Source: Betaproteobacteria bacterium (GTDB taxonomy: Bacteria > Pseudomonadota > Gammaproteobacteria > Burkholderiales > Casimicrobiaceae). Taken from it: a DNA stretch of 64,000 nt. Below the pieces are notes generated by a model, which saw nothing but the letters and a program-made list of their open reading frames with translations, did not search any database and had not been told where the DNA came from. The stretch is taken from positions 49,728 through 113,727 of the forward strand of contig JACPUX010000010.1 of the NCBI GenBank assembly GCA_016192065.1, given 5' to 3'. Position numbers and translations under genes: made by a program. Shown here piece after piece: positions 5,255 to 31,430 of this stretch (positions within the stretch are counted from its first letter, which is position 1; the number at the start of each line of letters is the position of its first letter).

Positions 5255-5303
5255 ACGCGAGCAGATTCATTTTCATCTATCGGCTTAAATGAAATGAGGT
5301 GCT

Positions 5304-5747
5304 TTGATGATGTTTGATCGTAGCGAACTCAAGCGAAGGGCTTTTCAACGCGCCGCACTCGCTCTTTTTTCGTTCTGGGAGGAACAAAGAGACACTTACC
5401 CGCGGTCCGCTGCAGTTCATTCAAGAATATTTGAGACTCTTATATATGACGAGTACATTGCGATGAACGAGAGGGGCGAGAATCGCACATATCGTGAGCA
5501 TGTGGTGCCATGCGCATATATCCGCAATTACGCATTTAAAATGTTTTGGGACAAACGAACAGTCAATGATGTCGCCGACATGATTGGCCGCTTATTGCGT
5601 ATTGTCTATATCACGCATGAGGAGGCCGATGCCCTCAACTCCAGACATCGAGACACCATGCCTAGCAATTGGAATCCAGAAACTGGTTCGATTCTGCAAA
5701 GACTGGAAGAGAAAAATATCATCGTTGTCTGTCCATTCGGCGGGTAA
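5304..5747 (+). CDS. hypothetical protein in low-GC patch directly downstream of glmS (possible HNH-like EHVVP motif)
   Basis: 147-aa ORF; local GC visibly lower than flanks; motif YREHVVPCAYI resembles an HNH xEHxxP core but lacks Zn-binding Cys pairs. Confidence 0.4.
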   Translation: MMMFDRSELKRRAFQRAALALFSFWEEQRDTYPRSAAVHSRIFETLIYDEYIAMNERGENRTYREHVVPCAYIRNYAFKMFWDKRTVNDVADMIGRLLRIVYITHEEADALNSRHRDTMPSNWNPETGSILQRLEEKNIIVVCPFGG

Positions 5748-5932
5748 CGCTGCGGCCCTATGGTAGCGCCGCGACCGGCGCGCTCGTGAGTTTCTACATT
5801 TGCCTTGAGCAAGGCGAGACCGTGGATGAACTCAACCAAGACCTTCGCGAAGTACTTGCGATGCTTCTGGAAGATGGTGAACCTGATCAGGAGTCGGAAT
5901 TTGTCGGAGTTCAAACCGTTGCCGTGGCTTAG
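5669..5932 (+). CDS. possible HicB-like antitoxin-domain protein (UPF0150-like); overlaps previous ORF in another frame
   Basis: Segment ...GALVSFYICLEQGETVDELNQDLREVLAMLLEDGE resembles the HicB N-domain consensus (...PGC.sqG.TleEal.n.reAle..le); weak. Confidence 0.25.
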   Translation: MESRNWFDSAKTGREKYHRCLSIRRVTLRPYGSAATGALVSFYICLEQGETVDELNQDLREVLAMLLEDGEPDQESEFVGVQTVAVA

Positions 5933-6079
5933 CTGCTGGGTGAGCTTCCCATTCTCAAGCCCGGTACTGTTATTTCCATACTCCTTGTACTGGGCTTTGA
6001 GGAAGTGCGGTAACGCAGATAGCTGAAGTCGACTGACGAAACAAAGACCTTCTTTGCTCGAACCTTAACAACGCTTCCA

Positions 6080-7078
6080 ATGCCCGAATCCCGCAACACA
6101 CTCCAATGCCTGCTTGAACTTTTGCAGCACATTCCGCGTCATCCGCAGAGCATTACCGTGGCGGAGTTGCGTGACGCGCTGGATCGCAACGGCTTTACGC
6201 TCACCGAGCGTTCCATACAGCGACATCTGGTTACGCTGTCGCAATCGTTCTCCATCACGGCCGAGGAGCGCGAAAAACCGTATCGTTGGTACTGGACGCC
6301 AAGCGCACAGGGTTTGACCATCCCGGCACTCTCGCGCACCGCCGCGCTCACCCTGCTGATGGCGGAAAAGCACTTGCAAGGTTTACTACCGCAACCGATG
6401 TTGAAGGAACTCGGTGCTTACTTCGAGGCGGCGCGTCGCGCCCTTGCCAGCTCGCGCGAAGGGCCGCGCCGCTGGCTCGACCGCGTGCGCATCGTGCCGC
6501 CGGCGCAACCGCTGCTTGCTCCCACCATCGCGGCAGACGTGCACGAGGCGGTCTCGAAAGCGCTTTTGGATTCGCGCCAACTCCGCATCAAGTACCAGAA
6601 GCGCGGCGAAAAAAGCGCCAAGGACTGGACGATTCATCCCTTGGCCCTCGTGCAGCGTGGCCCGATGCTCTACCTCTATTGCCGCTTGTTCGACTACCCG
6701 GACGCGCGCACGCTGGCGCTGCATCGCATCAAGTCGGCCGAGTTGCTCGATGACAAAGTCGAGGCGCCGGAGGGGTTCGATCTCGATCGGCAAATCGTGG
6801 CGGGTACCTGGGGCTTTGGGGCGGGCCAGGAAATCGCGGTTGATCTCTACTTCTACAACGAGGCAGGTGATCACCTGATGGAAACGCCGCTCGCCGCCGA
6901 TCAACAAATCACGGAGTTCGGCAACGGCGAACTGCGAGTCAAGGCGCGGGTAGCGGATACGCCGCAACTGCGCTGGTGGATTTTGAGCATCGGTGATGGC
7001 GTCGAGGTCAAGAGGCCCAAGCGCCTGCGCGGCGAAATTGCTGAAGTCGCCAAGGCCACCGCGGCGCTTTACGAATAG
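6080..7078 (+). CDS. HTH-WYL-WCX transcriptional regulator (BrxR/CapW/PafBC-like)
   Basis: N-terminal wHTH (ITVAELRDALDRNGFTLTERSIQRHL), central WYL domain (WTIHPLALVQRGPMLYLYCRLFDYPDARTLALHRI), C-terminal extension; 332 aa. Confidence 0.8.
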   Translation: MPESRNTLQCLLELLQHIPRHPQSITVAELRDALDRNGFTLTERSIQRHLVTLSQSFSITAEEREKPYRWYWTPSAQGLTIPALSRTAALTLLMAEKHLQGLLPQPMLKELGAYFEAARRALASSREGPRRWLDRVRIVPPAQPLLAPTIAADVHEAVSKALLDSRQLRIKYQKRGEKSAKDWTIHPLALVQRGPMLYLYCRLFDYPDARTLALHRIKSAELLDDKVEAPEGFDLDRQIVAGTWGFGAGQEIAVDLYFYNEAGDHLMETPLAADQQITEFGNGELRVKARVADTPQLRWWILSIGDGVEVKRPKRLRGEIAEVAKATAALYE

Positions 7079-7459
7079 AGGAATGACGCGCGGGGAAATT
7101 TACTTAGAAGCCGCCCCTTACCCGATCAGCCTCTTGCCTGCCGATTGTCCTGTATGAACTTCCTGATTGCCCTCCCGCTGTCCGCATCAACACCAAACAT
7201 CGTGCCCGTGAAGAAGAGAATGTTTTGGAGCGCACGCTCGTCCAAGCCAAAGCTCTGTAATCGTTCTGTGCGCCGTTTTTCTGCGTAGCGCGTCTTGGTA
7301 TTGATACTCAGCAGCATCGTTGTGCCTCCGAAGAAGTTGAGACATCCGATTGAAGGTGGCGTGGTTCCAGCGAGCACTCGCACAAATTTCTTGCAATCGC
7401 GGGAACTAAATTTCACCCGCTGTGCTCTATGCACGCCCACTTTCGCGCCGGATATCCGA

Positions 7460-8215: not shown

Positions 8216-8237
8216 GTGTCGGGCGCCCTCGACTTTG

Positions 8238-10835: not shown

Positions 10836-10965
10836 GTCGATATCCGAAAGTTTGATCGGGTATGCATGGTCTCATTTTGGTGCGACATTTCGTGTCGCAG
10901 CATTCAAGGCCCGACACTTCCTGGTACTTTGAGCGCAGGGAGCGCGGTTAGCAGCTACGTGCTTA

Positions 10966-11631
10966 CTATTTCAGACTTTCTAGCCACGAACTCGCGGAGA
11001 GCAGATGCGTTTCAGGTACCCACCGGCCCACTGCTCTTCTAACCGATCCAGATATCCCCAGAATCGCGGACACTTTTGGAAGGACTTCTTGGTTTTCATC
11101 TGAGAGCTGTACGGCTGTTTGGAAGAGCTTTGAGCCACACTTGTCGCCCTCCACGATAACCAAGGTAGGTTCCGCGTTAGCGCGCCGCAAATGCGCGTTG
11201 TTGGCAAGATGGTTCAGCGCCGACGGCGGCCATAAAGGCGAATCAGGCATTGAATGGACTTCGCGAACCTTTAAGAGCCCGATCACAAAACAGGTGCCAG
11301 GGGACACCGCCGGACCCTGAAATCCAGCGTAGAACACAAGATAGTCGCCGGCCGTCAATCTAAGCAGTTGAAGGCGTTTGGGATTGTTAGGCTCGCCGTA
11401 GGTGAAGGTGCCAAATTCGGGATCGAAGTGCGCTGGTTGGTCGCGGGAAACAAACTTGAGAAGCGAACCTCCAGAGCGAGCAGGTATATGACTGTACAGA
11501 ACAGCGCGCCCCGGAAGCAACGGTTTGCTTTCGGGGATAGGGACGTACTCGAAACAGCCGTCGGCATTGATCGGGGACAGGGTTCCTCCACATCCCCGAT
11601 CAATGCCAACTCGAAGGAACAATATCTTCAT
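10966..11631 (-). CDS. unknown-function protein P240, paralog of the next gene (start MKILFLRVGIDRGCGG, ATGA-coupled to upstream stop)
   Basis: ATG at 11631 overlaps TGA of the upstream gene (ATGA); shares an N-terminal beta-strand/Gly-loop motif [KR]V.xDRG... and a downstream GD..hhh.G motif with P261. Confidence 0.55.
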   Translation of the reverse strand: MKILFLRVGIDRGCGGTLSPINADGCFEYVPIPESKPLLPGRAVLYSHIPARSGGSLLKFVSRDQPAHFDPEFGTFTYGEPNNPKRLQLLRLTAGDYLVFYAGFQGPAVSPGTCFVIGLLKVREVHSMPDSPLWPPSALNHLANNAHLRRANAEPTLVIVEGDKCGSKLFQTAVQLSDENQEVLPKVSAILGISGSVRRAVGRWVPETHLLSASSWLESLK

Positions 11632-12413
11632 GGCTGGGAAATGTCTTCCTCGCCCGCCGCGTCCGACTCCTTCTCGCGATGTTGGCACTCACCGCATCGC
11701 GGGGACTCGTTGGGATTGCCAGGCCCATCGGCCGGTTGGCCAAGTATCCCGGAATTCTCAATATTCAGATTGCTAAGTGATGTGTTGAACCACTCCCGGA
11801 ACTTTTCCCTGAAACCCGCATTCGCGTTGGAACGGTGCCCCTGGCCTCTCGGGACTATCGCTTCTAGTTCGTTGGGCAACCGCGCATTGTAGCGGTCGCC
11901 ACGACCAAAATACCAGTACTGGCGGCCAATCAGGACTTTTTGCCCGTTAGTAACGTCTCTCTCAAAATCGTCCTCGCCATGACCAGACCACGATGGTAGA
12001 GGTGCCTGCTCATCTGTTGCACTCTTCCAAATACAATCGCCGGGGTTTCGCTCGCCCTGTGGCACCTTGGCTGTGAAGGACTGGTCGTTACTGCAGCGAG
12101 TGATATAGCATTCCCAGCATATTGCTTCCCCCACAACCATCAGATAGACAAGTCTGTTGGAATCATCTCCGCATCCAAACCCCGCTACAACATCGCCGGG
12201 TTGTGCAACACGCCGGATGATAGGCTTGCAAATGGCAAGCGTGCAAATTTTTCCAAAGGGGTTCGGCGCACTACCGCGGTCTGCCGCCACTTTGTACGTG
12301 AAAAGCCGATGATTCTTGAACTCCGGCAAACCGCCCATTTCCATTTTCTCCCGTTTTTTCCGCCGCATGCGGCATTCACTATCATCGAAAAGGACTAATC
12401 CTGTAGCGACCAA
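11628..12413 (-). CDS. unknown-function protein P261 (N-terminal motif FTYKVAADRGSAPNPFGKICTLAICKP; C-terminal CGECQH)
   Basis: 261-aa ORF overlapping both neighbours (operon); paralogous N-terminal region with P240. Confidence 0.55.
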   Translation of the reverse strand: MVATGLVLFDDSECRMRRKKREKMEMGGLPEFKNHRLFTYKVAADRGSAPNPFGKICTLAICKPIIRRVAQPGDVVAGFGCGDDSNRLVYLMVVGEAICWECYITRCSNDQSFTAKVPQGERNPGDCIWKSATDEQAPLPSWSGHGEDDFERDVTNGQKVLIGRQYWYFGRGDRYNARLPNELEAIVPRGQGHRSNANAGFREKFREWFNTSLSNLNIENSGILGQPADGPGNPNESPRCGECQHREKESDAAGEEDISQP

Positions 12414-13234
12414 TCCACCAAACTTGCCACTACGCGAGAGGCAGATTTTTCCTCGTTGTTCTGTGCAAAGAGATATCGCCGCTCATTATGCATCCCTCCC
12501 CGATCGCGCTCAACGGCCGGAACGCGCTCGAACCCCGTCCACGCCTGCGTGTACTCGGCCACCAAAAGAAACTCCGGGAAAACCCCGCATCGTTGCGCAA
12601 TTCTTTCCAGCAGACCGTCGCGGCCAAAGCGCTCGTAGTTACCGCCGAAGCCATGATCGACAAGCACTACCGCAAACGGTGGCCGCTGTTCATGGCCTTG
12701 GCAGAACAGTGCGTCGTAGCTGGCGATGCCGTCGGCGCCTAGAAACAGAATGGCGAGCCGCTTCGCGCCATGTTCTTCGGCAAGGTCCGGGTTTCTTTCG
12801 AGCACTTCCAGAAAACCAAAAGGTGCGTCCGCCACGCTGGCAAAATTCAGTGCGGAGGCGATGTTTAGTTCGTCGGGCGCGAGGTGGCTTCTCCAGCCAT
12901 TCGGAACGAGATCGCTTTCGCGCAATGGCACGCGGGCTAACCGGTGGTAACCGAGAAACCCGTGTTCCGGGTGCTCCAAAGTCTTTTCCAGTTCCGCCTG
13001 CGTGCGGCCATAGTCCACATAGACGAAGCAATGCGCAGCGTGCGCCGAGCCGAAGAGTTTGACCGGGTGGCCGTCGGTTCCGGAACCTGGGTAATAGACG
13101 ATGCGCGAGCTAAGGAATGCCTGGCGCGGAAAGGCATTTCCATTTGTGAATTGGGCGAGCCAGTCAGGCATCGCTTCGCGCTTCTCGCGTAGATATTCGC
13201 TTGGCGTCATGGTGTTCTCGCGTATGCGGGTCAT
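12395..13234 (-). CDS. unknown-function protein P279 (possible Rossmann-like G-loop VYYPGSGTDG)
   Basis: 279-aa ORF, 19-nt overlap with P261; weak similarity to a SAM-MTase motif I only. Confidence 0.5.
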   Translation of the reverse strand: MTRIRENTMTPSEYLREKREAMPDWLAQFTNGNAFPRQAFLSSRIVYYPGSGTDGHPVKLFGSAHAAHCFVYVDYGRTQAELEKTLEHPEHGFLGYHRLARVPLRESDLVPNGWRSHLAPDELNIASALNFASVADAPFGFLEVLERNPDLAEEHGAKRLAILFLGADGIASYDALFCQGHEQRPPFAVVLVDHGFGGNYERFGRDGLLERIAQRCGVFPEFLLVAEYTQAWTGFERVPAVERDRGGMHNERRYLFAQNNEEKSASRVVASLVDWSLQD

Positions 13235-13244
13235 ATCATTTTGG

Positions 13245-13310
13245 GTTCTTCTGGGTAATCAGCCCCATCCCCGCCTTCCCCCATCGAGGGGGAAGGAGTT
13301 GAGCCAGGGT
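13245..13310. repeat. GC-rich perfect hairpin CCTTCCCCC-ATCGA-GGGGGAAGG in intra-operon gap (REP-like)
   Basis: 9-bp perfect inverted repeat directly visible, no T-tract on either side. Confidence 0.5.
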
Positions 13311-13378
13311 GGAGCGACCGTCAGGCCCACACCAACGTCCATTAGGCGTCATTTTGAAGAAGAGGAACGTAACACAAT

Positions 13379-15556: not shown

Positions 15557-15743
15557 GGCGACACCAGAATGGAAAACGTTCGGGTGCCGATTGTAGGGGG
15601 TGCATGCGACACATTATGTCGCTTTAACTATTATTGCGGCTTTGCGAGCAGATCGACTTGCGGGTCTTGAAACGCATCTATACGATTCCGCGAGTAGAAC
15701 TCTGGCCTGGCAATGGCGCATTTTTTTCCGGATGGAGGCAATT

Positions 15744-16235
15744 ATGGATATTCACCTGAATTGGGTAGGCCCAATGTCGTTGGAGGCCGCTCACGAACTT
15801 TTGAACCAGGATGACGTCGGTTTGTATCAGTGGTATGGCGACCATCCGGTATATGGTGCCGAGACACTGCTCTACATCGGGATGGCCTTTGACCAAAGGT
15901 TAGGAGAAAGACTGGAGCAGGAGAACTGGGGAGAATGGATTCCTTCCACTCCGAGTCTTTATGTTGGGCGCGTTTGCACCGAGAACGGCAGCGCGCCAAA
16001 CAATGGAAGAACGATAGTTATGACCGCGGAAAAGGTTCTTTTATTCTCCCACAGCCCTGCGTTCAACTCGAGCAACCTAAACAATATCGACGGTGTGGCG
16101 CAAGATGTCCGCGTCCTCAATTGGGGGATGCGGAAGAGCTTATTGCCGGAAGTTAGCGTCTATCGGTGGGTGGCTGGCGGGCAGCATGGTCATCGGCTGC
16201 CGAATGGTTTATCTCCAGTTCAATGGTCAAATTGA
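15744..16235 (+). CDS. hypothetical protein, possible GIY-YIG-like nuclease fold (low GC)
   Basis: GGAGG RBS 5 nt upstream of ATG 15744; motif GLYQWYGDHPVYGAETLLYIGMAFDQRLGERLEQ resembles GIY...YIG...R...E but the spacing (15 aa) is atypical. Confidence 0.35.
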   Translation: MDIHLNWVGPMSLEAAHELLNQDDVGLYQWYGDHPVYGAETLLYIGMAFDQRLGERLEQENWGEWIPSTPSLYVGRVCTENGSAPNNGRTIVMTAEKVLLFSHSPAFNSSNLNNIDGVAQDVRVLNWGMRKSLLPEVSVYRWVAGGQHGHRLPNGLSPVQWSN

Positions 16236-16236
16236 G

Positions 16237-17661: not shown

Positions 17662-17911
17662 ATCCTCCTATCTGCACTTTCACCGGCGCTGCGACTGCCA
17701 TCGCGTCGCCGCGTAAGAGTCGCTACCTCGACTATGAATGATGCATGCGACAAGATGCGTCGCATGAAGGAGGATGTGTTCTTGCTGCTGGCCACAACTT
17801 GGTGACGCATTGCCCGACGGACTGTATTTGTCTGCCTGACAAGCCGCAATTGGTGCCGCAATTGGCGCGGCTTACTGCGTGGGGCAACGCACTGGCAGGC
17901 GGGTTGAGCGG

Positions 17912-21511: not shown

Positions 21512-21583
21512 ATGCCCTCAGGCAAGCAGTTTACACCACCCGAAACACCTTCATCACCTCATCCCCCAGGTGATTGATGACCT

Positions 21584-24388: not shown

Positions 24389-24588
24389 GGTGTCAGGTTG
24401 CCGATGTCGGAATGATGCGTTTGAGGCGTTTTTGAGGCGTTTCGATCGCCCTGAGTCGTGGCGGGTTTGACGGGTTCGTGACGGGTTGCCCGATGAGGCA
24501 TGAGCTCATAGAGCCGTTTATGAGACCTTGGCGGTGTGAGTCTGGCATGGCAGTCATGGCACCTTTGTGGCCCGCTTGTGGGTGTTGA

Positions 24589-25431
24589 TCAGGAATCGAG
24601 GCCATCAGGGTTCTTGAGCGATTTCTTTTCTTCTGCTGCCAGACGGCGTTCGACTTTTTTGACATCCTCGGCTGGCGGAAGGCTTTCGGGGCGGATGCCG
24701 CGCTCGATCAGGGTCTTGCGCACTGCTTCGTTGTTGGTGATGTGCTCGTTGGAAATGGCCCGCTCAGTGCCAAGACGATGCTCGCGCGTATTGAAAATGG
24801 TGATTTCTGTGGCGAAGTCCTTGGCTTTCAGGATGATGGTTGGCGCGAAGTCGGCCAGTGGTCTGCTATCCGGCACTTTCCACTGTGCCTTCATGGCTTG
24901 AGTCGACTTTCCGAAGAGAGCCTGGTCGCCTTTACTGCGGATCAGCGCGAAATCCTGATTGCCGCCGGTCTGTTCATAGATGACGGATGAAAGGTCCTTT
25001 TCCGTTTTGGTGAGCTTTTTCCGTGCCTGCACCCGCTCCGCTTCCAGCAGACGTTGCTCGATCAACTCCGCTTTGCGCGTCTGGATGGCAAAGTAGGTCT
25101 GGGCAAATGCAATTTCCGGCTTTTTGGAGTCGCCGTTCTGTGCAATCAGATAGCAGGCATAGCGGGTGAGCATGAGGTCATCCACTTCACGCTGGCTGCC
25201 AGAGCCCAGATCGACCATTTTGGTGACCTCAACAAAATGGTCTGCTATCGGGTGATTGGTCACTTCACAAGCGGTTCTTGCCTTGCTGACGACCGACATG
25301 AAGTTTCGCCATTCCGTATAGCCCAGCAAATGCTGAATATCGCGCGCCAGCCAAAACTCAACGCCATTTTCAGCTTGTTGCGCATGCGCCTCGAAGGAGT
25401 CGGTCAGCGAATGGATAAGATCAGTTTTCAT
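24589..25431 (-). CDS. dinD: DinD-like / Bro-N domain protein (DNA-damage-inducible protein D family)
   Basis: N-terminal Bro-N-like segment EFWLARDIQHLLGYTEWRNF..., 280 aa, lower GC than neighbours; sits between res and mod. Confidence 0.7.
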   Translation of the reverse strand: MKTDLIHSLTDSFEAHAQQAENGVEFWLARDIQHLLGYTEWRNFMSVVSKARTACEVTNHPIADHFVEVTKMVDLGSGSQREVDDLMLTRYACYLIAQNGDSKKPEIAFAQTYFAIQTRKAELIEQRLLEAERVQARKKLTKTEKDLSSVIYEQTGGNQDFALIRSKGDQALFGKSTQAMKAQWKVPDSRPLADFAPTIILKAKDFATEITIFNTREHRLGTERAISNEHITNNEAVRKTLIERGIRPESLPPAEDVKKVERRLAAEEKKSLKNPDGLDS

Positions 25432-25440
25432 GAACCTTCC

Positions 25441-28400
25441 CTATGTTCGAATGGGAACCGTTTTCCCCTCAGCGAGGGTCTGGCGAATCATTTGATCGAA
25501 CTCCGCCTCCACCTTTTTGGCGAAGTCTTGCTGCATCCGGAACACGTCGGTGAACTCGGCGAAGGCCCAGCGCCCGTATGTGCCGAGGTGATTCACGCCG
25601 GGCACCCAGTAGGTGTCCATGGTCGATTTCTTTTCCTTGGCGTCCTCTCGCCGATAGCCCTTGATCTCGACGATCAGATGCAGCAGGTCGTCCGGGCCGT
25701 GCCCGTCATCGACCAGGACGATGAAGTCGGGCAGGTATTTGCGCGTTTCCGAGCCGTAGCGGTAGGGCACCTCGAAGCCGAGTCCGTGGTTCTTCACGTA
25801 GGCGCGCACCTTCGGATGCGCTTCGGCCACGCGGCAGAATTCGGCTTCCCAGTCGCTGTCGAGCACCACCCAGTTGATATGGCAGTGCCGGGAACTGGTC
25901 TCCCAGCGGCACGCCTTCGAGGTGTTGAAGCGGACATGCCGTGTCGAGCCGTTGGGGTTGTAGGGATCGAGCAGCGCCTTGATCGGTCGTTCGTCGAGGA
26001 ATCGCCGGGTGATGGCAGCAGTGATTTTCTCGCAGGCCATGTCGGCCAGTTGCAGATACAAAAGCTGCGCCGGGTAGGTGCCGCCCTTGCACTCCAGATG
26101 ATGGTCGAGCCATTCCTTGGCGATGCGCTTCAGCTGGCCGAAGAGATGCAGCTTGGGCTCCTCGCCGGGATCGCGCCACTTGGTGTAGAGCAGCCGCTGG
26201 GTGAGGTTGAACAGCAGGGTCGAGGCGCGGACATCGCCCAGATGGTCGACCGTGAGGTTGACGCCCTCGCCGATGATGCCTTCGTTGCGCGTCTCGCAGG
26301 GGCCGACCAGCTCCGGGGTCAGGAGCAGCGTCGAGTCTTCGTTGAAATGGGCCGTGAGCCGTTCTTCCGGCAGCTCGACGCGGTAGCCTTCGACGCGCGG
26401 GAAAACGATTTCGAGGGCGTCGCGCTCGGGGCGGACTGCCTTGACCTGCACCGTTTCGCGCGGCGGCTGCGGCGGACTGACGACGGGCTTGGCGGTGAAG
26501 TCGAAGGGGATGCCGAACACGTCGGCGTATTCGACGTCGAATAGTCCTTCCTCGTTGAGATCGTAGGACTGGCGGCGCAGCGCCCGGCCGATCACCTGTT
26601 CGCACAGGAGCTGCGTGCCGAAGGCGCGGATGCCGAGGACGTGGGTCACGGTGTTGGCGTCCCAGCCTTCGGTCAGCATCGACACCGACACCACGCAGCG
26701 GATCGTACCGCCGAGCTGGCCGGCCTTGCCGACGGTGTTCATGACTTCGCGCAGGAGTTCCTGATCGGCGAGGTTGTCGCCGGCACGGGCGTCGCCGGTG
26801 CGCTCGACGATCTCGCGGCGGAAGCGCGCGATTTCGTCGGCGGCCATTTCGTGGAACTTGTCGTCCAGCGCATCGCCCGCTTCGAGCTGCTCGCTGTCGA
26901 TCAGCAGGGTGTTCGGGCGCGGCAGCGGATTGCCGGTGGTTTCGTCGAAGTTGCGAAACAGCGGCAGGCGGCCGTGTTCGGGCGTGGCGGTGCCGTCATC
27001 ATTCTTGCGATGAAAGCCGGAAATGAAGTCATAGACGAGCTTCGAAATGGCGGTGTTCTGGCACACCACGATGAAGCAGGGCGGCACCTTGATGCCGGCC
27101 TCCTGCCAGAGCTTGAAAGTCTTTTCGTAGTGGCCGTACAGCGCCTGTAGGGCGGTTTGCAGCCGGGTCGGCAGCTTGAGCGGGTCGAGTTCCTGGTTGG
27201 CGCCGCGCCCTTTCTTCGGCATGTCCTTGCGGATGTTCTCCCAGAGGTTGCGGAAAACAGGCAGTTCGTCGCCGGGGATGTTTTCCGCCACCGGAACGCG
27301 CGGCAGCTTGACGATGCCGCACTCGATGGCATCCATCAGGGAAAAGTCGCTCATCGTCCAGGGGAACAGCGTGCCTTCGGCGTAACCCGATCCGCGCAGG
27401 AAAAAGGGTGTGGCGGACAAGTCGATCGTGCGACTGAGACCGAGCTTGCGGTTCACGGCTTCAAGGCCGGAAATCCAAAGGCGGGCGGCTTCGTTGTTCT
27501 TCTCGGCCTCGGTCTTTTCCTCGCCCTTAAGATCCTCGTCATCGGCTTCCCGCGGCTTCTCGCGGTAGCAGTGGTGGGCCTCGTCGTTGATGGCGAGGAT
27601 GTTCTTCATGCCCATCAGATCGGGCATGACGCGCTGGAGCATTTGGCCTTCGGTTTCGGTGGTGACGATCTCGTCGCCGGTGCGGCCCTTGAGCAGTTGG
27701 CGCCCGCCCTTGGAAATGTCGATGCGCTCGCGCAGCTTGAAGGCGTGGTAGTTGGTGATGACGATCTTGGCGCGGCCCATCTCGTCGAGCAGATCGTGGG
27801 GCACCAGTTCGCGCTCGCGATAGTAGCTGTCGGGGTCGTTGGGCTGGAGCACGCGCAGCCGGTCCTTGATGGTGAGGCCCGGCGCGCAAATCAGGAAGCC
27901 GCGGGTGAATTGTTTGCTGGACGGGCGGCGAACGGCATTGAGGGTCTGCCAGGCGAGCAGCATGGCCATGACGGTCGTTTTGCCCGCCCCCGTGGCCAGC
28001 TTCAGCGCCAGCCGCATCAGGCCGGGATTGGCGTCCTTGTTGGCGGCCGCCAGGTGATCGAGCAAGCGTTTGCCGTGCCTGGTGCCGGGCGCGACCTCGA
28101 TCAGCCAGATGGCGGCTTCGACCGCCTCGACCTGACAGAAGAAGGGGCGGACACCGTTGAATTTGTGATGGCGCCAATGCTGCAGCAGCCGCGCCGTCTC
28201 CGGCGTCACCTGCCACTGGTTCGGGTTCGGCAGCGCGCGCCAGGCGTCCACGTGATTGCGCACCTCGTTGATGATCGAGGTTGGGTCGTATTGCTGAGTG
28301 CCGCTCGATAGACCCTTGCCTTCGTCGAAAACGAAGCCTTCCTGTTGCGCGACTTGTTTCTGTTTCTTCGGTTTTGGGATTGGAGTGATGAACTCAGCAC

Positions 28401-28518
28401 GGCGGCGCAACTCCAGAATTTGCTGGGTCGGTTGACCGGCAGCATCCAACTCCCAATGTCGCGACGGGCGCTCATAGGGAGAGTTCAGAATCGGACGATC
28501 GAAAAACGGAATCGACAT
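25441..28518 (-). CDS. res: Type III restriction endonuclease Res subunit (SF2 helicase + C-terminal PD-(D/E)xK nuclease)
   Basis: Walker A LATGAGKTTVMAML, DEAH box AINDEAHHC, motif VI QVIGRALRR, C-terminal ...DFIVLVDDG...EIKGY nuclease-like; 1025 aa. Confidence 0.85.
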   Translation of the reverse strand: MSIPFFDRPILNSPYERPSRHWELDAAGQPTQQILELRRRAEFITPIPKPKKQKQVAQQEGFVFDEGKGLSSGTQQYDPTSIINEVRNHVDAWRALPNPNQWQVTPETARLLQHWRHHKFNGVRPFFCQVEAVEAAIWLIEVAPGTRHGKRLLDHLAAANKDANPGLMRLALKLATGAGKTTVMAMLLAWQTLNAVRRPSSKQFTRGFLICAPGLTIKDRLRVLQPNDPDSYYRERELVPHDLLDEMGRAKIVITNYHAFKLRERIDISKGGRQLLKGRTGDEIVTTETEGQMLQRVMPDLMGMKNILAINDEAHHCYREKPREADDEDLKGEEKTEAEKNNEAARLWISGLEAVNRKLGLSRTIDLSATPFFLRGSGYAEGTLFPWTMSDFSLMDAIECGIVKLPRVPVAENIPGDELPVFRNLWENIRKDMPKKGRGANQELDPLKLPTRLQTALQALYGHYEKTFKLWQEAGIKVPPCFIVVCQNTAISKLVYDFISGFHRKNDDGTATPEHGRLPLFRNFDETTGNPLPRPNTLLIDSEQLEAGDALDDKFHEMAADEIARFRREIVERTGDARAGDNLADQELLREVMNTVGKAGQLGGTIRCVVSVSMLTEGWDANTVTHVLGIRAFGTQLLCEQVIGRALRRQSYDLNEEGLFDVEYADVFGIPFDFTAKPVVSPPQPPRETVQVKAVRPERDALEIVFPRVEGYRVELPEERLTAHFNEDSTLLLTPELVGPCETRNEGIIGEGVNLTVDHLGDVRASTLLFNLTQRLLYTKWRDPGEEPKLHLFGQLKRIAKEWLDHHLECKGGTYPAQLLYLQLADMACEKITAAITRRFLDERPIKALLDPYNPNGSTRHVRFNTSKACRWETSSRHCHINWVVLDSDWEAEFCRVAEAHPKVRAYVKNHGLGFEVPYRYGSETRKYLPDFIVLVDDGHGPDDLLHLIVEIKGYRREDAKEKKSTMDTYWVPGVNHLGTYGRWAFAEFTDVFRMQQDFAKKVEAEFDQMIRQTLAEGKTVPIRT

Positions 28519-28797
28519 GGCGACGGCCTACCCTCCCGCGCGTTGTTATTGGCCTACCGGCGCCCTATTCTCTACCAAAACTCTGGCGATGACCATGGCT
28601 GGCGGCTTGGCGTCATCATCCCCCCGAGGGTCCGAAAGAGTTTGCTCACGGCGTGGCCAAAGCAGCCGATCACCGTTTTCATTGAACGACCGTTTGCGAT
28701 GCCCTGCGTCGCTCCACTGACTTATCCGCCAAGCAAGTTTTTCATGGGCTTTGTGTCGGGCGCTCCGGAAGTGCACACCCAGGGCATGCGCTCTTGT

Positions 28798-29439
28798 TCA
28801 CCGTCGCATTCCCAGCGCGGCTTCGAGGAGCGCTTTGGCCCACTCGGGCGCCGCGTGCAGCGCGGCCCTGTCCTGGGGCTTGGGCCACAAGAGCTTTCCC
28901 TTCACCATTTCCAATACCAACAGAGGGTCCGGCACGGCTTTGCCGGGCGGCGCATGGGCACTGTTGTCGTAGACCTGCACCTGCGCGACCTGCGGCATCA
29001 GCCCGATCAGGTTGCCTTGCGCATGCACATAGCGCTCTCGAATCTTCGCCTCGGGAATGTCGTGGCCGCCGGCGGCGACGCGGGCGCGCACGCGCGCGAT
29101 GTGCTGTTCGGGCGACGCCAAGCCGCAGAACCAGATCAGCACATCGTGCGAGCGCGTGGCGGCGAGAATCTTTTGCGGTACGGACTGACCGCCCAAGGTC
29201 GTTTCAAAAGCGTAGGAGCTGCGGGATGCAAGGGCCTCGTCGAGGCGCCGCATTCCCTCGCCCCAAGCTTGCGCATTGGCGCTGCGTTGATCGCTGCCGG
29301 TGGCGGCGACTAACTCTCGGGCGAAGGTATCGGGATTGAACCAGGTCAATCCGGCGCGTTCGAGCAAATAGCCGCCGACCGAACTCTTGCCGGCGCCGTT
29401 GACGCCAGCAAGGACGTAGAGGACAGGGCGCGCCTTCAA
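28798..29439 (-). CDS. zeta-toxin-family P-loop kinase
   Basis: VLAGVNGAGKSS Walker A at N-terminus, about 210 aa, ATGA overlap with upstream antitoxin gene. Confidence 0.75.
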   Translation of the reverse strand: MKARPVLYVLAGVNGAGKSSVGGYLLERAGLTWFNPDTFARELVAATGSDQRSANAQAWGEGMRRLDEALASRSSYAFETTLGGQSVPQKILAATRSHDVLIWFCGLASPEQHIARVRARVAAGGHDIPEAKIRERYVHAQGNLIGLMPQVAQVQVYDNSAHAPPGKAVPDPLLVLEMVKGKLLWPKPQDRAALHAAPEWAKALLEAALGMRR

Positions 29440-29813
29440 TGCCGGGCACCGGCCTTCACTTTGCCTTTCAAGCGAGCGCCGGCACGCATAACATCGCGCA
29501 GCCGGTCTGCGGCATCCGGAGACTGCAAGACGGCCAAGCGCTGATCGAAGCGCTGGCGCAAAGCGGCCAAGGCGTTTTCGGTCTGCATCGCCGTCTGTTG
29601 CGCTGCCCGCATGAGATCTGCGTATTCGTCGGTCGAGAGGATCACGGCCTCGGGTTCATCGTGGTTGGTGACCACCAATTTGCCCTCGCTGCGTATTGTC
29701 CTCATCAAGCCGCGCCAGCCGAGTTTCTTGACATCGGAAGCAGGGGCATGGGGGAGCTGCGCGAGCCAATCGAACAGTTTGCTATTGGATGCCACGGCCA
29801 TGGGACCTCCCAA
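29436..29813 (-). CDS. Phd/YefM-like antitoxin (start probably MAVASNS)
   Basis: Motif LVVTNHDEPEAVILSTDEY typical of Phd/YefM antitoxins; 4-nt overlap with the toxin gene. Confidence 0.65.
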   Translation of the reverse strand: MGGPMAVASNSKLFDWLAQLPHAPASDVKKLGWRGLMRTIRSEGKLVVTNHDEPEAVILSTDEYADLMRAAQQTAMQTENALAALRQRFDQRLAVLQSPDAADRLRDVMRAGARLKGKVKAGARH

Positions 29814-31004
29814 AGCGTCATTCAGGTACGAGCATTATAGCCCAACAGGCCTTTTAGGCCATTTTTCCCTATTGAGTCATTTGGGCTTGGGCGATTTGCA
29901 GCGCTCATCATGTGAACTTCGTCGTTGCGAACACGCAACACCATGTCGCATTACTTGAAGAATTTTCTTTGCGTTTTCTATTGCATGGAGTACGATGCGC
30001 GCCTTGCTTTTGGAAAACCTCATGAATCTCCTGCAACGATTTGGGTTTGATGGTTCTCTGCGCGGCGCCGCTTTCGGCGCGGCTGCGTTTGCCCGAACCC
30101 GGCATGGAGTTCAAGCCGAGCGCCGCGCCACTTGCGGCCAAGGCTCACCGCGGGCGTTGTTCCAGAAGTAGTCCCCTGAACGGTCTTGGGCCGCCAGGGT
30201 GGGCGGCGGAAAGTACAAGACCGGATCGCGCTGTTTCTTTCCTCTTCTCTTCCGCTGCGGCTTCCGCGCCGCGTTTGGCTGCGGGCTTGGCTTTTTGTTT
30301 CTTGATCAAGGAGTGTCGTTTGAAATTTGCGTTTTGCCATTCGTTTACGGCGATGAAGCCGCTGCCGCAACAGCCATTGGGCCAGTTTGCGCGCACGGCC
30401 GCCACGCGGTGGCATTTGCCTTCTTGCGGACAGCGTCCGGGTGATGCACTCGAGGGAGCGAACGCTTTGTAGTTCGCTTGTTGCCTCGGTTGTCATGGCC
30501 CGGTATTCCGCGAGGAAACCGGGTTTTTTGTTTTTTGGAATCGGCTTTTTCGCTGCGCCACTTTGCGTGCCAGCGATGAGGCCGGCAGTACGGCAATTGC
30601 GGTGTTGTGCGCGACGCCGCCAACCGGGTTTGCGGGATTGCCGCCGCGCGTGAGGCGCGGTCACTAGTCGTTTGCGGCCTTTGGGCGCGGGCGACGAAAC
30701 TTTGGCTGCGTCCTCGCGGGCGCAGCGCTGAAAGCGCGCGGCCACTTGCCAGATCGGCCTGGGCCGCGCGCGCTTTCGGGAGGGGTATGTGGGCTGGTTT
30801 AAATGGGGGCAGTGCGGAGTTATTGATCGCGCCTTCCGACGCTCCTACAGGAGGCAAGGCATTGTTTTGTGCCGCTGTCTTTCGGCGGCGGCGAAAGGAT
30901 TCGCCAGGGTTCTTGTTGTCAGCGGATGAGGTTCGTGAATCCTCACCGGTGCGCCCTGCCTTCGTTGGCTTGGTGTATGCCGCGGCAAGGCAATTGGCGG
31001 ATGT

Positions 31005-31078
31005 AAGCTGAATTGGCTCAAAGGTAGAGCGCGGGTGACAAGCCCGAGGTTGCGGGTTCGAGTCCCGTATTCGGCACT
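31005..31078 (+). tRNA. degenerate tRNA-like sequence (acceptor GCTGAAT/ATTCGGC, D-arm, T-arm GCGGGTTCGAGTCCCGT present; anticodon arm does not fold)
   Basis: Hand-folded: acceptor, D- and T-arms pair, anticodon stem has at most 4 bp and lacks U33; probably pseudo-tRNA or att remnant. Confidence 0.35.
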
Positions 31079-31080
31079 GT

Positions 31081-31156
31081 TGTTCCATAGCTCAGTACGG
31101 TTAGAGCAGTCGACTGAACATCGACCGGTCGAGGGTTCGACTCCCTCTGGAAGATT
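31081..31156 (+). tRNA. tRNA-Phe(GAA)-like sequence with G2-G71 mismatch, C37 and non-A discriminator (possibly pseudogene)
   Basis: TA-GCTCAGTACGGTTAGAGC D-arm, perfect anticodon stem GTCGA/TCGAC with loop CTGAACA, T-arm GAGGGTTCGACTCCCTC; acceptor TGTTCCA/TGGAAGA has one mismatch; no CCA. Confidence 0.45.
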
Positions 31157-31430
31157 AGCCCTGTAACGGCTATTTGTTGGTAGTACCCGGGCCGGCTTCG
31201 GCGGCAAGCGCGTTTTGGCTTGACGCACCGCGCGCCCGACTTGCGCGCCGCCGGCGCGTGAGAGCGAGGCCGCTTGAGCTTCGCGTCGCCGTTCGTGTGC
31301 ATCGCTTGCCATTTTGGGAGGGTGCCGCGAACGCGGCGCGCGGCGCGGCGGCCCTCCCCCTCATGCCAAGCGGAGGCCCGTCGAGCGGGCGGGAAGCCCG
31401 GCCCATTTTTGGATCGTGAAGGAGAAGAAC

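What the first reader, a model, noticed from the sequence alone, without database searches (positions are those of the whole stretch)
5255..31170. About 26-kb accessory region inserted between glmS and a degenerate tRNA-like pair: probable genomic/defense island, or two islands flanking dnaB
Right after the glmS stop (5254) gene content switches from core to a mosaic of hypotheticals, WYL regulator, PP2C, tandem AAA operon, pseudo-FtsZ, helicase operon, Type III R-M, DinD and a zeta/Phd TA. There are visible GC dips at about 5260-6060, 15600-16240, 20040-21500 and 24390-25440. The far side ends in about 1.2 kb of gene-less GC-rich DNA and two imperfect tRNA-like sequences (31005-31156). The glmS 3' flank (attTn7) and tRNA genes are classic integration hotspots. 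No integrase, Tns genes or terminal direct repeats were found, so the mobilising element may be degraded or outside the window. dnaB (8777-10132) and its neighbours look compositionally core-like and may split the region into two islets.
Basis: partly seen in the sequence, partly recalled or inferred. Interest (0 to 1): 0.6.

Follow-up and report, generated by a model that had tools for sequence, protein, structure and literature searches.

The report
Integrase-free defence hotspot beside tRNA-shaped RNA
The stretch after glmS is a real, layered accessory and defence region that differs in every related genome, but the "degenerate tRNA pair" taken as its edge is a conserved tRNA-shaped non-coding RNA belonging to the neighbouring stomatin-like (SPFH) gene, which is a known but untested RNA-repair accessory.

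Summary
The gene content, GC dips, tRNA-like pair and absence of integrase or repeats are all as described.

Relatives with 90-98% identical GlmS lose homology at window 5253-5270. They regain it at 30453-30915, so about 24.6 kb (5255 to about 29,900) is variable. It is layered:
- 6074-17764 (WYL to DnaB to FtsZ-like) and zeta/Phd are shared with the closest relative.
- 5255-6073 is not found in any relative's DNA fetched here.
- 10942-12470 (Nmad2/3) and 17765-28791 (UvrD-like, PDC-M32, Type III R-M) are absent at these positions from the closest relative.

No mobility genes or att repeats exist. Other relatives carry different cargo at the same site, such as a tRNA array with Ro60, RtcB and HNH, or an M48 peptidase with DUF898. 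The best reading is an integrase-free hotspot flanked by conserved anchors.

The gene-less 1.2 kb and the tRNA-like pair are backbone, not island edge. They form a conserved structured leader made of a three-way-junction domain and two tandem cloverleaves, with strong covariation. The tRNA-shaped part is found 207-540 nt upstream of SPFH homologues in 68 loci, usually with RtcB, RtcR or tRNA arrays. This matches the predicted "band-7-associated tRNA". The island is ordinary; the RNA module is the more interesting by-product.

The parts
3440..5254 (+). glmS, the left conserved anchor of the variable region
   Evidence: Pfam SIS and GATase domains. Homology to relatives L081, L082 and L083 ends at 5253-5270.
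5255..6073 (.). Low-GC stub (GC 0.49) with one 146-aa hypothetical ORF (5307-5747). No homologue in any relative's DNA fetched here.
   Evidence: No homology in any relative. GC. No Pfam or PADLOC hit. Reproduced in Logan contig L172.
6074..10941 (.). Older resident block, part 1: WYL-WCX regulator (6080-7078 +), PP2C (7295-8215 +), hypothetical (8238-8684 -), DnaB (8777-10132 -), Zn-ribbon/DUF2628 (10203-10835 -).
   Evidence: Pfam. 83-85% nucleotide identity and the same gene order in the closest relative GCA_964517465.1 (L168). DnaB homologue identities parallel those of GlmS.
10942..12470 (-). Small insertion carrying Nmad3 (10966-11688) and Nmad2 (11628-12413), both nucleotide-modification-associated domains
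   Evidence: Pfam PF18754 and PF18753. Absent from L168 and L169 between DUF2628 and the 279-aa protein. GC 0.543.
12471..17764 (.). Older resident block, part 2: hypothetical (12395-13234 -), two-domain AAA ATPase (13379-15556 -), hypothetical (15600-16235 +), tubulin/FtsZ-like GTPase (16237-17091 -), hypothetical (17092-17661 -).
   Evidence: Pfam, NCBIfam and PADLOC. Shared with L168 at 83-88% nucleotide identity.
17765..28791 (-). 11-kb defence insertion absent from the closest relative: UvrD-like helicase (17912-20074), PDC-M32B (20040-20414), PDC-M32A (20411-21511), Type III-like methylase (21584-24388), Bro-N/PDC-S13 (24589-25431), restriction subunit (25441-28518).
   Evidence: PADLOC: PDC-M32A 424 bits, M32B 151 bits, MTase_III 1342 bits, PDC-S13 390 bits. 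Absent in L168, where the 189-aa gene abuts zeta. The methylase-hypothetical-endonuclease cassette matches plasmids at 74-77% nucleotide identity. Junctions reproduced in L173 and L174.
28792..29813 (-). Zeta-like kinase (28798-29439) and Phd/YefM-like antitoxin (29436-29813)
   Evidence: Weak Pfam hits. Shared with the closest relative, whose two contigs L168 and L164 abut inside this gene.
29814..30898 (+). Clade-specific upstream part of a long non-coding leader. It holds a conserved candidate promoter (TTGCGT 29969-29974, 16-nt spacer, TACGAT 29991-29996; inferred), several conserved hairpins, and a terminator-like hairpin with U-run at 30499-30536.
   Evidence: Alignments A1, A3 and A6 of window, L164, L082 and L165. 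No coding-type ORF. No Rfam family. The promoter was not called by the consensus scan.
30899..31002 (+). Conserved three-way-junction RNA domain directly 5' of the tRNA-like pair
   Evidence: RNAalifold on 20 loci: 32 pairs, 14 with compensatory changes (A8).
31007..31076 (+). tRNA-like module 1: full 7-bp acceptor stem, D arm and T arm, but an abnormal anticodon arm (4-bp stem; the loop varies in length between loci)
   Evidence: ARAGORN and Rfam. Covariation in acceptor, anticodon and T stems. Reduced to an acceptor-plus-T-arm minihelix in distant loci.
31081..31155 (+). tRNA-like module 2: invariant D and T arms, a covarying anticodon stem, a loop of form Y-U-NNN-A-A with a free triplet, and only a 4-bp acceptor stub in the family consensus. 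In the window copy five of the seven acceptor positions pair, with a G2-G71 mismatch. No CCA.
   Evidence: Present in all 68 loci upstream of SPFH.
31156..31430 (+). Conserved hairpin-rich 5' UTR running up to the SPFH ribosome-binding site
   Evidence: Alignments A1 and A3. blastn conservation reaches window position ~31270 in many loci.
31431..32570 (+). SPFH/Band-7 (stomatin-like, 'slipin') protein. The true start is the ATG at 31431.
   Evidence: Pfam Band_7 110 bits. Start fixed by alignment with homologues. 95%, 88% and 83% identical in relatives. Closest solved structures are stomatin, QmcA and HflK.
32630..33757 (+). Single-domain classical AAA ATPase, a partner of SPFH in a minority of loci
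   Evidence: Pfam AAA. Directly downstream of SPFH in L082, L094, L095, L101, L104 and L164. Resembles the Afg2, Cdc48 and VAT domains.
33758..35604 (-). Second, small variable segment: HepT (33800-34192), MNT (34189-34515), Clp_N-domain protein (34680-35099), hypothetical (35163-35447).
   Evidence: Pfam and PADLOC. Partly shared with L164. Replaced by DUF2846 plus a hypothetical in L165-L167.
35605..43728 (-). Right backbone: Ser/Thr kinase (35555-37138) and the NiFe hydrogenase cluster, syntenic in relatives
   Evidence: 79-83% nucleotide identity over 6-8 kb with L165-L167. Pfam.

Best explanation
Window 5255 to about 29,900 is the variable cargo of an integrase-free genomic hotspot. The hotspot lies between two conserved anchors: glmS on the left and an RNA-repair-type locus on the right (structured leader, two tRNA-shaped modules, SPFH gene).

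Cargo at this site is exchanged or nested piecemeal. I infer this happens by recombination in the conserved flanks and by illegitimate insertion or deletion, not by site-specific integration. In this genome the cargo has three layers:
- An older resident block (WYL, PP2C, DnaB, DUF2628, two-domain AAA, FtsZ-like, zeta/Phd), which is also present in the closest relative.
- Additions missing from the closest relative: Nmad2/3 and an 11-kb defence insertion. That insertion holds a PDC-M32A/B plus UvrD-like helicase operon and a Type III-like R-M cassette with a Bro-N gene between its two subunits.
- A low-GC stub next to glmS with no homologue in any relative's DNA fetched here.

The tRNA-like pair is not an att site. 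It is the tRNA-shaped RNA partner of the SPFH/Band-7 protein (the predicted 'b7a-tRNA' of RtcB RNA-repair operons), here duplicated in tandem and embedded in a leader about 1.4 kb long.

Shown: presence/absence polymorphism, boundaries, nesting, RNA conservation and covariation, and linkage of the RNA to SPFH. Inferred: the recombination mechanism, co-transcription of the RNA with SPFH, and any defence activity of the cargo genes.
For: **Boundaries**
- Homology with L081, L082 and L083 stops at 5253-5270. It resumes at 30453, 30585 and 30915.
- The kinase and hydrogenase region is syntenic in L165-L167.

**Different cargo at the same site**
- L081, L165 and L083 carry a tRNA array with Ro60, RtcB and HNH.
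- L082 carries an M48 peptidase and DUF898.
- None of the window's island proteins occurs in the 83 loci (L081-L163) searched.

**Nesting**
- In GCA_964517465.1, contigs L168 and L164 abut inside zeta.
- The order there is WYL to the 189-aa gene, then zeta-Phd, leader and SPFH, without 10942-12470 and 17765-28791.

**Defence content and mobility of cargo**
- The R-M cassette occurs on plasmids of several genera.

**Composition and mobility signatures**
- Island GC is 0.599 against 0.639 for the backbone.
- No integrase or transposase domain.
- No flanking repeats.
- No target-site duplication at the 11-kb insertion.

**RNA**
- Two tandem cloverleaves: 95.8% of cells paired, 24 of 38 pairs with compensatory change, 0 of 500 shuffles as high, slid controls at most 47%.
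- The 5' domain has 14 of 32 pairs compensatory.
- The tRNA-shaped element lies 207-540 nt upstream of SPFH in 68 loci.
- RtcB lies within 3 kb downstream in 22 of 40 loci, and RtcR, HNH and tRNA arrays lie upstream.

**Literature**
- A Band-7 protein plus a predicted b7a-tRNA next to RtcB (Burroughs & Aravind 2016, as reported in bioRxiv 10.1101/312249).
- An SPFH gene inside the P. aeruginosa rtc locus (PMC13086221).
Against: - **Few, fragmentary comparators.** Only four related lineages are available, all metagenomic and none complete. In the closest relative the gene left of WYL is not glmS, so the ancestral arrangement and the direction of events (insertion here or deletion there) are not settled.
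- **The dnaB block may not be 'accessory'.** It probably holds the lineage's replicative helicase. It may be relocated core DNA rather than island cargo.
- **No activity was tested.** The zeta/Phd assignments and the restriction subunit's PADLOC REase_III hits are weak.
- **RtcB is missing here.** It is absent from the 64-kb window, so the RNA-repair context is inferred from relatives.
- **Primary source not read.** The Burroughs & Aravind paper could not be opened.
Confidence: 0.75

Rival explanations
1. A single decayed mobile element (genomic island, ICE or prophage remnant, or Tn7-like transposon) integrated at attTn7 or at a tRNA gene. The tRNA-like pair is then the damaged target or duplicated att site, and the integrase has been lost.
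For: The position directly after glmS and next to tRNA-like sequences. GC dips. TA modules and R-M genes typical of islands.
Against: - No integrase or Tns domain, no direct repeats, no phage match.
- The tRNA-like pair is conserved with covariation upstream of SPFH in 68 loci that lack the island.
- The region is nested and layered rather than one unit.
- Relatives hold unrelated cargo at the same site.
Confidence: 0.07
2. Most of the segment is ordinary chromosomal DNA of this lineage, including its essential dnaB, that was rearranged next to glmS. Only the 11-kb R-M/PDC-M32 block, and perhaps Nmad2/3, are horizontally acquired.
For: - The block 6074-17764 plus zeta/Phd is shared with the closest relative at about the same nucleotide identity (83-88%) as the SPFH locus.
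- DnaB identities (85, 75, 73 and about 71%) decay like those of GlmS. The best NCBIfam model is the betaproteobacterial chromosomal type. The phage and SPI-7 island DnaB models score below their cut-offs.
- GC of the block is 0.60, with GC3 0.70-0.75 for DnaB and AAA.
Against: - The block is absent from this position in three lineages with 90-98% identical GlmS.
- dnaB is not in its canonical rpsF-priB-rpsR-rplI context, which a 73% homologue keeps.
- GC is below the backbone.
- It contains WYL, PP2C, an IetA-like AAA and TA genes typical of accessory DNA.
Confidence: 0.15
3. An assembly or binning chimera: the MAG contig joins unrelated DNA at the glmS and SPFH junctions.
For: The source is a metagenome-assembled genome (names). 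The composition is patchy.
Against: - Separate Logan assemblies of run SRR12113421 reproduce the glmS-to-stub-to-WYL junction (L172, 100% over 8038 nt).
- They also reproduce the helicase-to-189-aa-gene junction (L174) and the restriction-subunit-to-zeta-Phd-to-leader-to-SPFH junction (L173).
- An independent genome has the same adjacency of zeta-Phd to leader to SPFH.
Confidence: 0.03

Closest known systems
Core defence hotspots or defence islands without mobility genes: variable regions flanked by conserved core 'marker' genes, as described for Pseudomonas aeruginosa and E. coli pangenomes (from my own knowledge; not checked in the paper library)
   Same: Conserved flanks, different cargo in each relative, enrichment in R-M, TA and candidate defence genes, nested insertions, and no integrase or att repeats.
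   Different: One anchor here is an RNA-repair-type locus rather than a housekeeping gene. The cargo also includes a probable replicative dnaB. Only four fragmentary relatives support the pattern.
Tn7-family insertion at attTn7 downstream of glmS
   Same: The position immediately 3' of the glmS stop codon.
   Different: No TnsA-E genes, no Tn7 end repeats and no target-site duplication.
tRNA-targeted genomic islands (integrase plus a direct repeat of the tRNA 3' end)
   Same: tRNA-like sequences lie near one end.
   Different: The sequences are not tRNA genes but a conserved SPFH-linked RNA. There is no integrase and no repeat of their 3' ends.
[quoted passage not shown] Predicted by Burroughs & Aravind 2016 and, as of 2018, not validated experimentally (bioRxiv 10.1101/312249).
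   Same: A tRNA-shaped RNA sits directly upstream of an SPFH gene. In homologous loci RtcB, RtcA and RtcR are adjacent.
   Different: - The element here is a tandem pair preceded by a three-way-junction domain and about 0.9 kb of further conserved leader.
- The window has no RtcB. An AAA ATPase follows SPFH instead.
- Half of the related loci with enough upstream sequence (16 of 32) sit at the 3' end of long tRNA arrays.
- I could not check whether the original description covers these features.
Ro60 (Rsr) with YrlA/YrlB Y RNAs in the rsr-yrlBA-rtcBA operon of Salmonella
   Same: A non-coding RNA with a tRNA-like domain is encoded beside a scaffold protein in a sigma-54/RtcR-controlled RNA-repair operon. 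Relatives L081 and L083 carry Ro60 at the same hotspot.
   Different: The protein partner is SPFH, not Ro60. Rfam YrlA scores only 19 bits against a gathering score of 69.
[quoted passage not shown]
   Same: Related loci have 8-18 same-strand tRNA genes plus HNH and RtcB just upstream of the tRNA-like pair.
   Different: The window itself has no array. No paper in the library links L-arrays with SPFH.

Membership tests
Genomic / defence island (generic) | Presence/absence polymorphism among close relatives at a fixed chromosomal site | tested here: met
   Three lineages with 90-98% identical GlmS lack it and carry other cargo. The closest relative lacks 12.5 kb of it.
Genomic / defence island (generic) | Composition deviating from the backbone | tested here: met
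   GC 0.599 against 0.639. 39% of 800-bp windows fall below the backbone minimum. There are five dips of 0.49-0.55.
Genomic / defence island (generic) | Enrichment in defence-type genes | tested here: met
   Type III-like R-M, PDC-M32A/B, PDC-S13, an IetA-like AAA, a GajB-like helicase, WYL and TA genes. No activity was tested.
Genomic / defence island (generic) | Integrase, recombinase or transposase, plus flanking direct repeats | tested here: not met
   No such domain in any called ORF. No flanking repeats. No target-site duplication at the inner insertion.
Tn7-like element at attTn7 | TnsABC(D/E) genes and Tn7 terminal repeats 3' of glmS | tested here: not met
tRNA-integrated island | A genuine tRNA gene at one end whose 3' part is repeated at the other end | tested here: not met
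   The tRNA-like modules have an abnormal anticodon arm or a weakened acceptor stem and no CCA. They are conserved as SPFH leader RNA. No repeat near glmS.
b7a-tRNA / Band-7 RNA-repair module | tRNA-shaped RNA encoded next to an SPFH/Band-7 gene | tested here: met
   271 nt upstream of SPFH in the window and 207-540 nt upstream in 68 loci. Cloverleaf covariation.
b7a-tRNA / Band-7 RNA-repair module | Adjacent RtcB RNA ligase (with or without RtcA and RtcR) | tested here: not met
   No RtcB, RtcA or RtcR in the 64-kb window. Met in relatives: L164 has RtcB 2.7 kb downstream, L165 has it upstream, and 22 of 40 metagenomic loci have it downstream.
b7a-tRNA / Band-7 RNA-repair module | The RNA is expressed and binds SPFH or assists ligation | not testable with these tools
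   No expression or binding data. The literature says it was unvalidated as of 2018.
Canonical tRNA genes | 7-bp acceptor stem, 7-nt anticodon loop with a conserved anticodon, use in translation | tested here: not met
   - Module 1: the anticodon arm has a 4-bp stem and a loop of varying length across loci.
- Module 2: a 4-bp acceptor stub in the consensus, and a G2-G71 mismatch in the window copy.
- The module 2 triplet has entropy of 1.7-2.0 bits and is replaced by tetraloops in at least 8 loci.
Y RNA (YrlA) | Match to the Rfam YrlA model, and adjacency to Ro60 | tested here: not met
   19.1 bits against a gathering score of 69. No Ro60 in the window.
Type III restriction-modification | Mod methyltransferase plus Res helicase-nuclease encoded together | tested here: met
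   - Mod matches PADLOC MTase_III PDLC03632 at 1342 bits.
- Res has a ResIII domain and an endonuclease domain, but only weak REase_III hits.
- Plasmid homologues are annotated 'BPTD_3080 family restriction endonuclease'.
- Unusually, a Bro-N gene lies between the two subunits.
FtsZl1 operon (Makarova & Koonin 2010) | FtsZ-like protein with vWA, protein kinase, GTPase or OmpA-like partners | tested here: not met
   The partners here are a two-domain AAA ATPase and hypotheticals. The family description is from PMC2875224.

The most novel reading that the evidence does not exclude
The ~1.4-kb leader is a stand-alone RNA-damage sensor or decoy for an SPFH-AAA machine. It comprises a three-way-junction domain and two tRNA-shaped modules, one of which keeps a canonical anticodon-loop frame with a free triplet.

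On this reading, tRNA-targeting nucleases or tRNA-binding repair factors act on the tRNA-shaped modules, and that event controls or recruits SPFH-AAA. In this genome it would work without RtcB. This would make the SPFH locus the conserved core around which tRNA arrays, Ro60, RtcB or defence cargo are swapped.
Probability: 0.1. Interest if true: 0.75.

Novelty: new member of a known kind. Interest (0 to 1): 0.4.

Why it matters
For annotation, the pair at 31007-31155 would be called tRNA-Cys(ACA) and tRNA-Phe by standard tools, and it invites a false 'island at a tRNA' reading. It is really a conserved SPFH-linked RNA that no Rfam 15 family other than the generic tRNA model matches.

For biology, three points follow.
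- The locus shows an integrase-free hotspot in an uncultivated betaproteobacterial lineage. At one site, defence genes in one genome correspond to RNA-repair genes (tRNA array, Ro60, RtcB) in its relatives.
- The 68-locus set gives comparative support, from a new set of loci, for the b7a-tRNA predicted in 2016. It also extends that prediction with a tandem architecture, a 5' junction domain, a free anticodon triplet and a link to long tRNA arrays. I could not check which of these features the original paper already covers.
- A probable replicative dnaB sits inside the variable region.

None of this changes current concepts. It refines them.

Tried and rejected
- **Tn7/attTn7 and tRNA-att models.** No Tns or integrase domains and no repeats.
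- **Close genomes through the species-representative collection.** The best GlmS match was only 71%. Closer relatives came from the protein database and contig look-ups instead.
- **Rfam.** At gathering and at E up to 10 over 29700-31400, only tRNA hits plus noise. YrlA scored 19 bits.
- **Decayed tRNA array in the 1.2-kb gene-less DNA.** No further tRNA hits.
- **HNH, RtcB or Ro60 pseudogenes in the window.** None by tblastn.
- **HicB/HicA remnant at 5750-6010.** This was my reading by eye. Pfam gave no support even at E up to 1, so I dropped it.
- **FtsZl1-operon membership for 13379-17661.** I had misremembered a Cdc48 link. The paper lists other partners.
- **Phage origin.** No megablast match of the island to 50,697 phage records. 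No exact match of the module-2 T-arm/acceptor motif in viral contigs.
- **Diversifying selection on the module-2 anticodon.** The triplet is no more variable than the spacer flanking the pair, and it is replaced by GNRA or UUCG tetraloops in at least 8 loci. Neutral drift is therefore the simpler reading.
- **Sigma-70 promoter scan of the leader.** No site reached the threshold. The conserved TTGCGT-16-TACGAT is my inference only.
- **Burroughs & Aravind 2016.** Could not be opened by DOI or by a PMC id I recalled.

Full report
**1. What is in the window**

GC3-guided ORF calling and domain searches give the following layout.
- glmU (1740-3107) and glmS (3440-5254).
- A run of accessory-looking genes up to about 35.5 kb.
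- A Ser/Thr kinase (35555-37138), a NiFe hydrogenase cluster, and housekeeping genes (gpsA, secB, gpmI, ctpA, moeB, slmA, argB).

The GC dips are real (0.489, 0.513, 0.548 and 0.546), and there is a fifth at 10.9-12.5 kb (0.544). The backbone has GC 0.639, and its 800-bp windows never fall below 0.588.

ARAGORN and Rfam both call two tRNA-like genes at 31007-31076 and 31081-31155. No called ORF has an integrase, transposase or Tns domain. No direct repeats flank the region.

**2. Comparative test of the island**

The species-representative genome scan found nothing closer than 71% GlmS identity (Hydrogenophilales and Thiobacillus). The large protein collection held GlmS proteins at 98, 92 and 90% identity, and their contigs could be fetched (L083, L081, L082).

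Upstream synteny (CobS, fructosamine kinase, ParA-like, glmU, glmS) is kept in all three. Nucleotide homology to the window stops at 5253-5270. Downstream of glmS each lineage differs:
- L081 has about 20 tRNA or tRNA-like genes, a Ro60 (TROVE-vWA) gene, RtcB and an HNH endonuclease.
- L083 has an HTH gene, three tRNA-like genes and Ro60.
- L082 has an M48 peptidase and a DUF898 protein.

In L081 and L082 the window's SPFH gene reappears 8.7 kb and 3.7 kb after glmS, compared with 26 kb in the window. Homology to the window resumes at 30453 (L081) and at 30585 and 30915 (L082). In L165-L167 it continues through the kinase and the hydrogenase cluster at 79-83% identity. None of the proteins encoded between 5255 and 29813 has a homologue in the 83 loci (L081-L163) searched. 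The segment is accessory.

**3. The island is layered**

The closest relative is GCA_964517465.1, with SPFH 95% and DnaB 85% identical. It supplies two contigs whose ends both lie inside the zeta gene (L168 and L164). Joined, they read as follows:
- glycosyltransferase, amidohydrolase, a 188-aa hypothetical;
- WYL, PP2C, hypothetical, DnaB, DUF2628, a 265-aa protein, the two-domain AAA, hypothetical, tubulin-like, a 187-aa protein;
- zeta, Phd, leader, tRNA-like pair, SPFH, AAA;
- MNT, Clp_N, hypothetical, RtcB, a PAE-domain protein, kinase.

Against this genome the window has two insertions:
- 10942-12470 (Nmad3 and Nmad2).
- 17765-28791 (UvrD-like helicase, PDC-M32B/A, methylase, Bro-N/PDC-S13, restriction subunit).

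The window also lacks RtcB and the PAE-domain gene, and it has a different left neighbour (glmS and a low-GC stub). There is no target-site duplication at the 11-kb insertion. The methylase-hypothetical-endonuclease cassette recurs at 74-77% nucleotide identity on plasmids of Gemmobacter, Pseudomonas amygdali, Rhizobium and others. Nothing in the island matches phage records.

Separate Logan assemblies of run SRR12113421 reproduce all the critical junctions (L172 is 100% identical to 5041-13078; L173; L174). A chimera is therefore unlikely, although these may be the same reads the MAG came from.

**4. dnaB**

DnaB's homologue identities (100, 85, 75, 73, then about 71% to many Burkholderiales) decay like those of GlmS (100, 98, 92, 90, then about 72%).
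- Its best NCBIfam model is the betaproteobacterial chromosomal type (714 bits, below that model's cut-off of 834).
- It passes TIGR00665 and PRK05748.
- It falls below the cut-offs of the phage and SPI-7-island DnaB models.
- A 73% homologue sits in the canonical rpsF-priB-rpsR-rplI-dnaB context (L170). The window copy does not.

My reading is that this is probably the lineage's own replicative helicase in a non-canonical neighbourhood. Block 6074-17764 would then be older resident DNA. A second copy elsewhere cannot be excluded. The actual partition is: a stub with no counterpart in fetched relatives, resident block 1, the Nmad insertion, resident block 2, the 11-kb defence insertion, and zeta/Phd.

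**5. The 'gene-less DNA and degenerate tRNA pair'**

This is where the interpretation changes most. The stretch from about 29,960 to the SPFH start codon is conserved in L164, L082 and L081/L165 (A1 and A3). The true start is the ATG at 31431, fixed by alignment. Conservation is in blocks separated by indels that are not multiples of three, and several hairpins show compensatory changes. No ORF there has coding-type GC3.

A metagenome scan with the SPFH protein returned 80 loci at 55-76% identity. blastn, ARAGORN and a covariance model built from 17 sequences find the tRNA-like element 207-540 nt upstream of SPFH in 68 loci.

The consensus is two tandem cloverleaves. On the 17-sequence alignment:
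- 95.8% of cells form standard pairs.
- 24 of 38 pairs have changes on both sides.
- None of 500 shuffles reaches the observed values.
- Sliding the 3' partners by one to three columns drops pairing to 31-47%.

*Module 1* has a full acceptor stem, D arm and T arm, but an anticodon arm with a 4-bp stem and a loop whose length varies between loci. In the more distant loci it shrinks to an acceptor-plus-T-arm minihelix.

*Module 2* is universal. It has invariant D and T arms and a covarying anticodon stem. Its consensus acceptor stem is only a 4-bp stub, in which TTCC/GGAA, TGGA/TCCA and TCCT/AGGA covary. The window copy carries a G2-G71 mismatch. There is no CCA. Its 7-nt loop keeps Y32 (59 of 60), U33 (45 of 60), A37 (50 of 62) and A38 (56 of 64). 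The triplet itself is close to random, with entropy of 1.96, 1.81 and 1.73 bits. At least eight loci replace the loop with a GNRA or UUCG tetraloop. These are not decoding tRNAs.

A further domain at 30899-31002, directly 5' of the pair, folds as a three-way junction. In 20 loci, 14 of its 32 pairs show compensatory changes. Rfam 15 has no family for any of this beyond the generic tRNA model.

**6. What the RNA belongs to**

I clustered the neighbouring ORFs in the 83 loci L081-L163. The counts, each taken over loci with enough flanking sequence, are:

| Neighbour | Count | Position |
|---|---|---|
| RtcB | 22 of 40 | within 3 kb downstream of SPFH |
| RtcB (elsewhere) | several more | upstream |
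| HNH endonuclease (~190 aa) | 15 of 44 | just upstream of the element |
| RtcR-like sigma-54 activator | 8 of 44 | divergent, upstream |
| RtcA | 5 loci | downstream |
| Array of at least 4 same-strand tRNA genes | 16 of 32 | within 4 kb upstream |

TGGCAC-N5-TCGCT/TTGCA sigma-54-type promoter sequences are visible upstream of the element.

[quoted passage not shown] This was proposed by Burroughs and Aravind (2016) as a cofactor analogous to Ro60 and Y RNA, and it had not been validated experimentally as of 2018 (bioRxiv 10.1101/312249). P. aeruginosa PA14_60630 is an SPFH gene embedded in the rtc locus (PMC13086221). Long tRNA arrays with HNH and RtcB neighbours are known (PMC8421152), but no paper in the library links them to SPFH.

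The window's element is therefore a member of the b7a-tRNA/Band-7 kind. Three local particulars stand out:
- It is a tandem pair with a long leader.
- There is no RtcB anywhere in the 64 kb.
- An AAA ATPase lies directly after SPFH, as in L082, L094, L095, L101, L104 and L164.

The SPFH protein is stomatin-like. Its closest solved relatives (stomatin, QmcA, HflK) form large cages, and HflK/C cages enclose the AAA protease FtsH (for the matches; the cage biology is from my own knowledge). The AAA domain is of the classical Afg2/Cdc48/VAT type. An SPFH scaffold that holds a tRNA-shaped RNA and an ATPase is a reasonable working model, but it is inference only.

**7. Mechanism of the island**

The evidence fits an integrase-free hotspot. 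Two conserved anchors bracket cargo that differs in every lineage and is built up by nested insertions and deletions. Some cargo modules are also seen on plasmids. I infer that exchange occurs by homologous recombination in the flanks after transfer, plus illegitimate events. Neither was shown.

Notably, the alternative cargoes are all conflict-related: R-M, candidate defence and TA genes here, and tRNA arrays with Ro60, RtcB and HNH in the relatives. A second, smaller variable spot lies between the AAA gene and the kinase (33758-35604).

**8. Verdict**

The island as such is ordinary. The most useful outcomes are three: the correction of its right boundary, the recognition of the tRNA-like pair as a conserved SPFH-linked RNA, and the comparative data set supporting that little-studied RNA.

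Noticed in passing
L081 12949-19408 (same as L165 2258-8931); L083 7320-8885: In the relatives, the glmS-to-SPFH hotspot holds about 20 tRNA or tRNA-like genes in two same-strand arrays, interleaved with a Ro60 (TROVE-vWA) gene, then RtcB and an HNH endonuclease. This is an RNA-repair super-locus in the place where the window has defence genes.
   Followed up: partly
L084, L086, L094-L096, L100, L109, L111, L114, L125, L129, L150, L154 (upstream of the SPFH match): Long same-strand tRNA arrays (8-18 genes) end in the tRNA-like pair just before SPFH. 16 of the 32 loci with enough upstream sequence show this. No paper in the searched library links tRNA arrays to SPFH.
   Followed up: partly
L117, L124, L134, L140, L148, L156, L161, L162 (about 100-300 nt upstream of the tRNA-like element): TGGCAC-N5-TCGCT/TTGCA sigma-54-type promoter sequences, with a divergent RtcR-like activator gene in 8 loci. 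The window's clade lacks both and has a long leader instead.
   Followed up: partly
L121, L131, L136, L142, L145, L159, L161, L162 (module 2 of the element): The anticodon loop of tRNA-like module 2 is replaced by a GNRA or UUCG tetraloop. In the SPFH 55-62% clade, module 1 is cut down to an acceptor-plus-T-arm minihelix.
   Followed up: yes
window 30499-30536: A strong hairpin (CCCGG...CCGGG) followed by a U-run sits in the middle of the leader and is conserved in L164 and L165. It could be a terminator that ends a separate ~0.5-kb RNA, or an attenuator.
   Followed up: no
window 15601-15627 and 17742-17768: A similar palindromic motif (TGCATGCGACA...TGTCGC / GCGTCGCATGA) occurs in the two promoter regions of the AAA/FtsZ-like cluster, and the second copy is conserved in L168. 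It looks like a shared operator.
   Followed up: no
window 21584-28518: A Bro-N/PDC-S13 gene (24589-25431) sits between the methylase and the restriction subunit. The same three-gene arrangement (methylase, 'hypothetical', 'BPTD_3080 family restriction endonuclease') recurs on plasmids of several genera.
   Followed up: partly
window 35448-35554, compared with L164 5980-9775: The closest relative has RtcB and a 655-aa PAE-domain gene between the small hypothetical and the Ser/Thr kinase. The window has only about 100 nt there, so RtcB seems to have been lost from, or never gained by, this genome's SPFH locus.
   Followed up: partly
window 13379-17661: A two-domain AAA ATPase (IetA-like and Cdc48-like hits), a 284-aa tubulin/FtsZ-like GTPase and three hypotheticals form a cluster conserved in the closest relative. 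It does not fit the published FtsZl1 operon, and its function is unknown.
   Followed up: partly
window 8777-10132: A chromosomal-type DnaB lies away from rplI, between a DUF2628/zinc-ribbon protein and a PP2C/WYL pair, in both this genome and its closest relative.
   Followed up: partly
window 59932-63999: A very large ORF (over 1355 aa, running off the window end) with Big_5, Big_9, CopC and cadherin-like domains. GC2 is unusually high (0.59).
   Followed up: no
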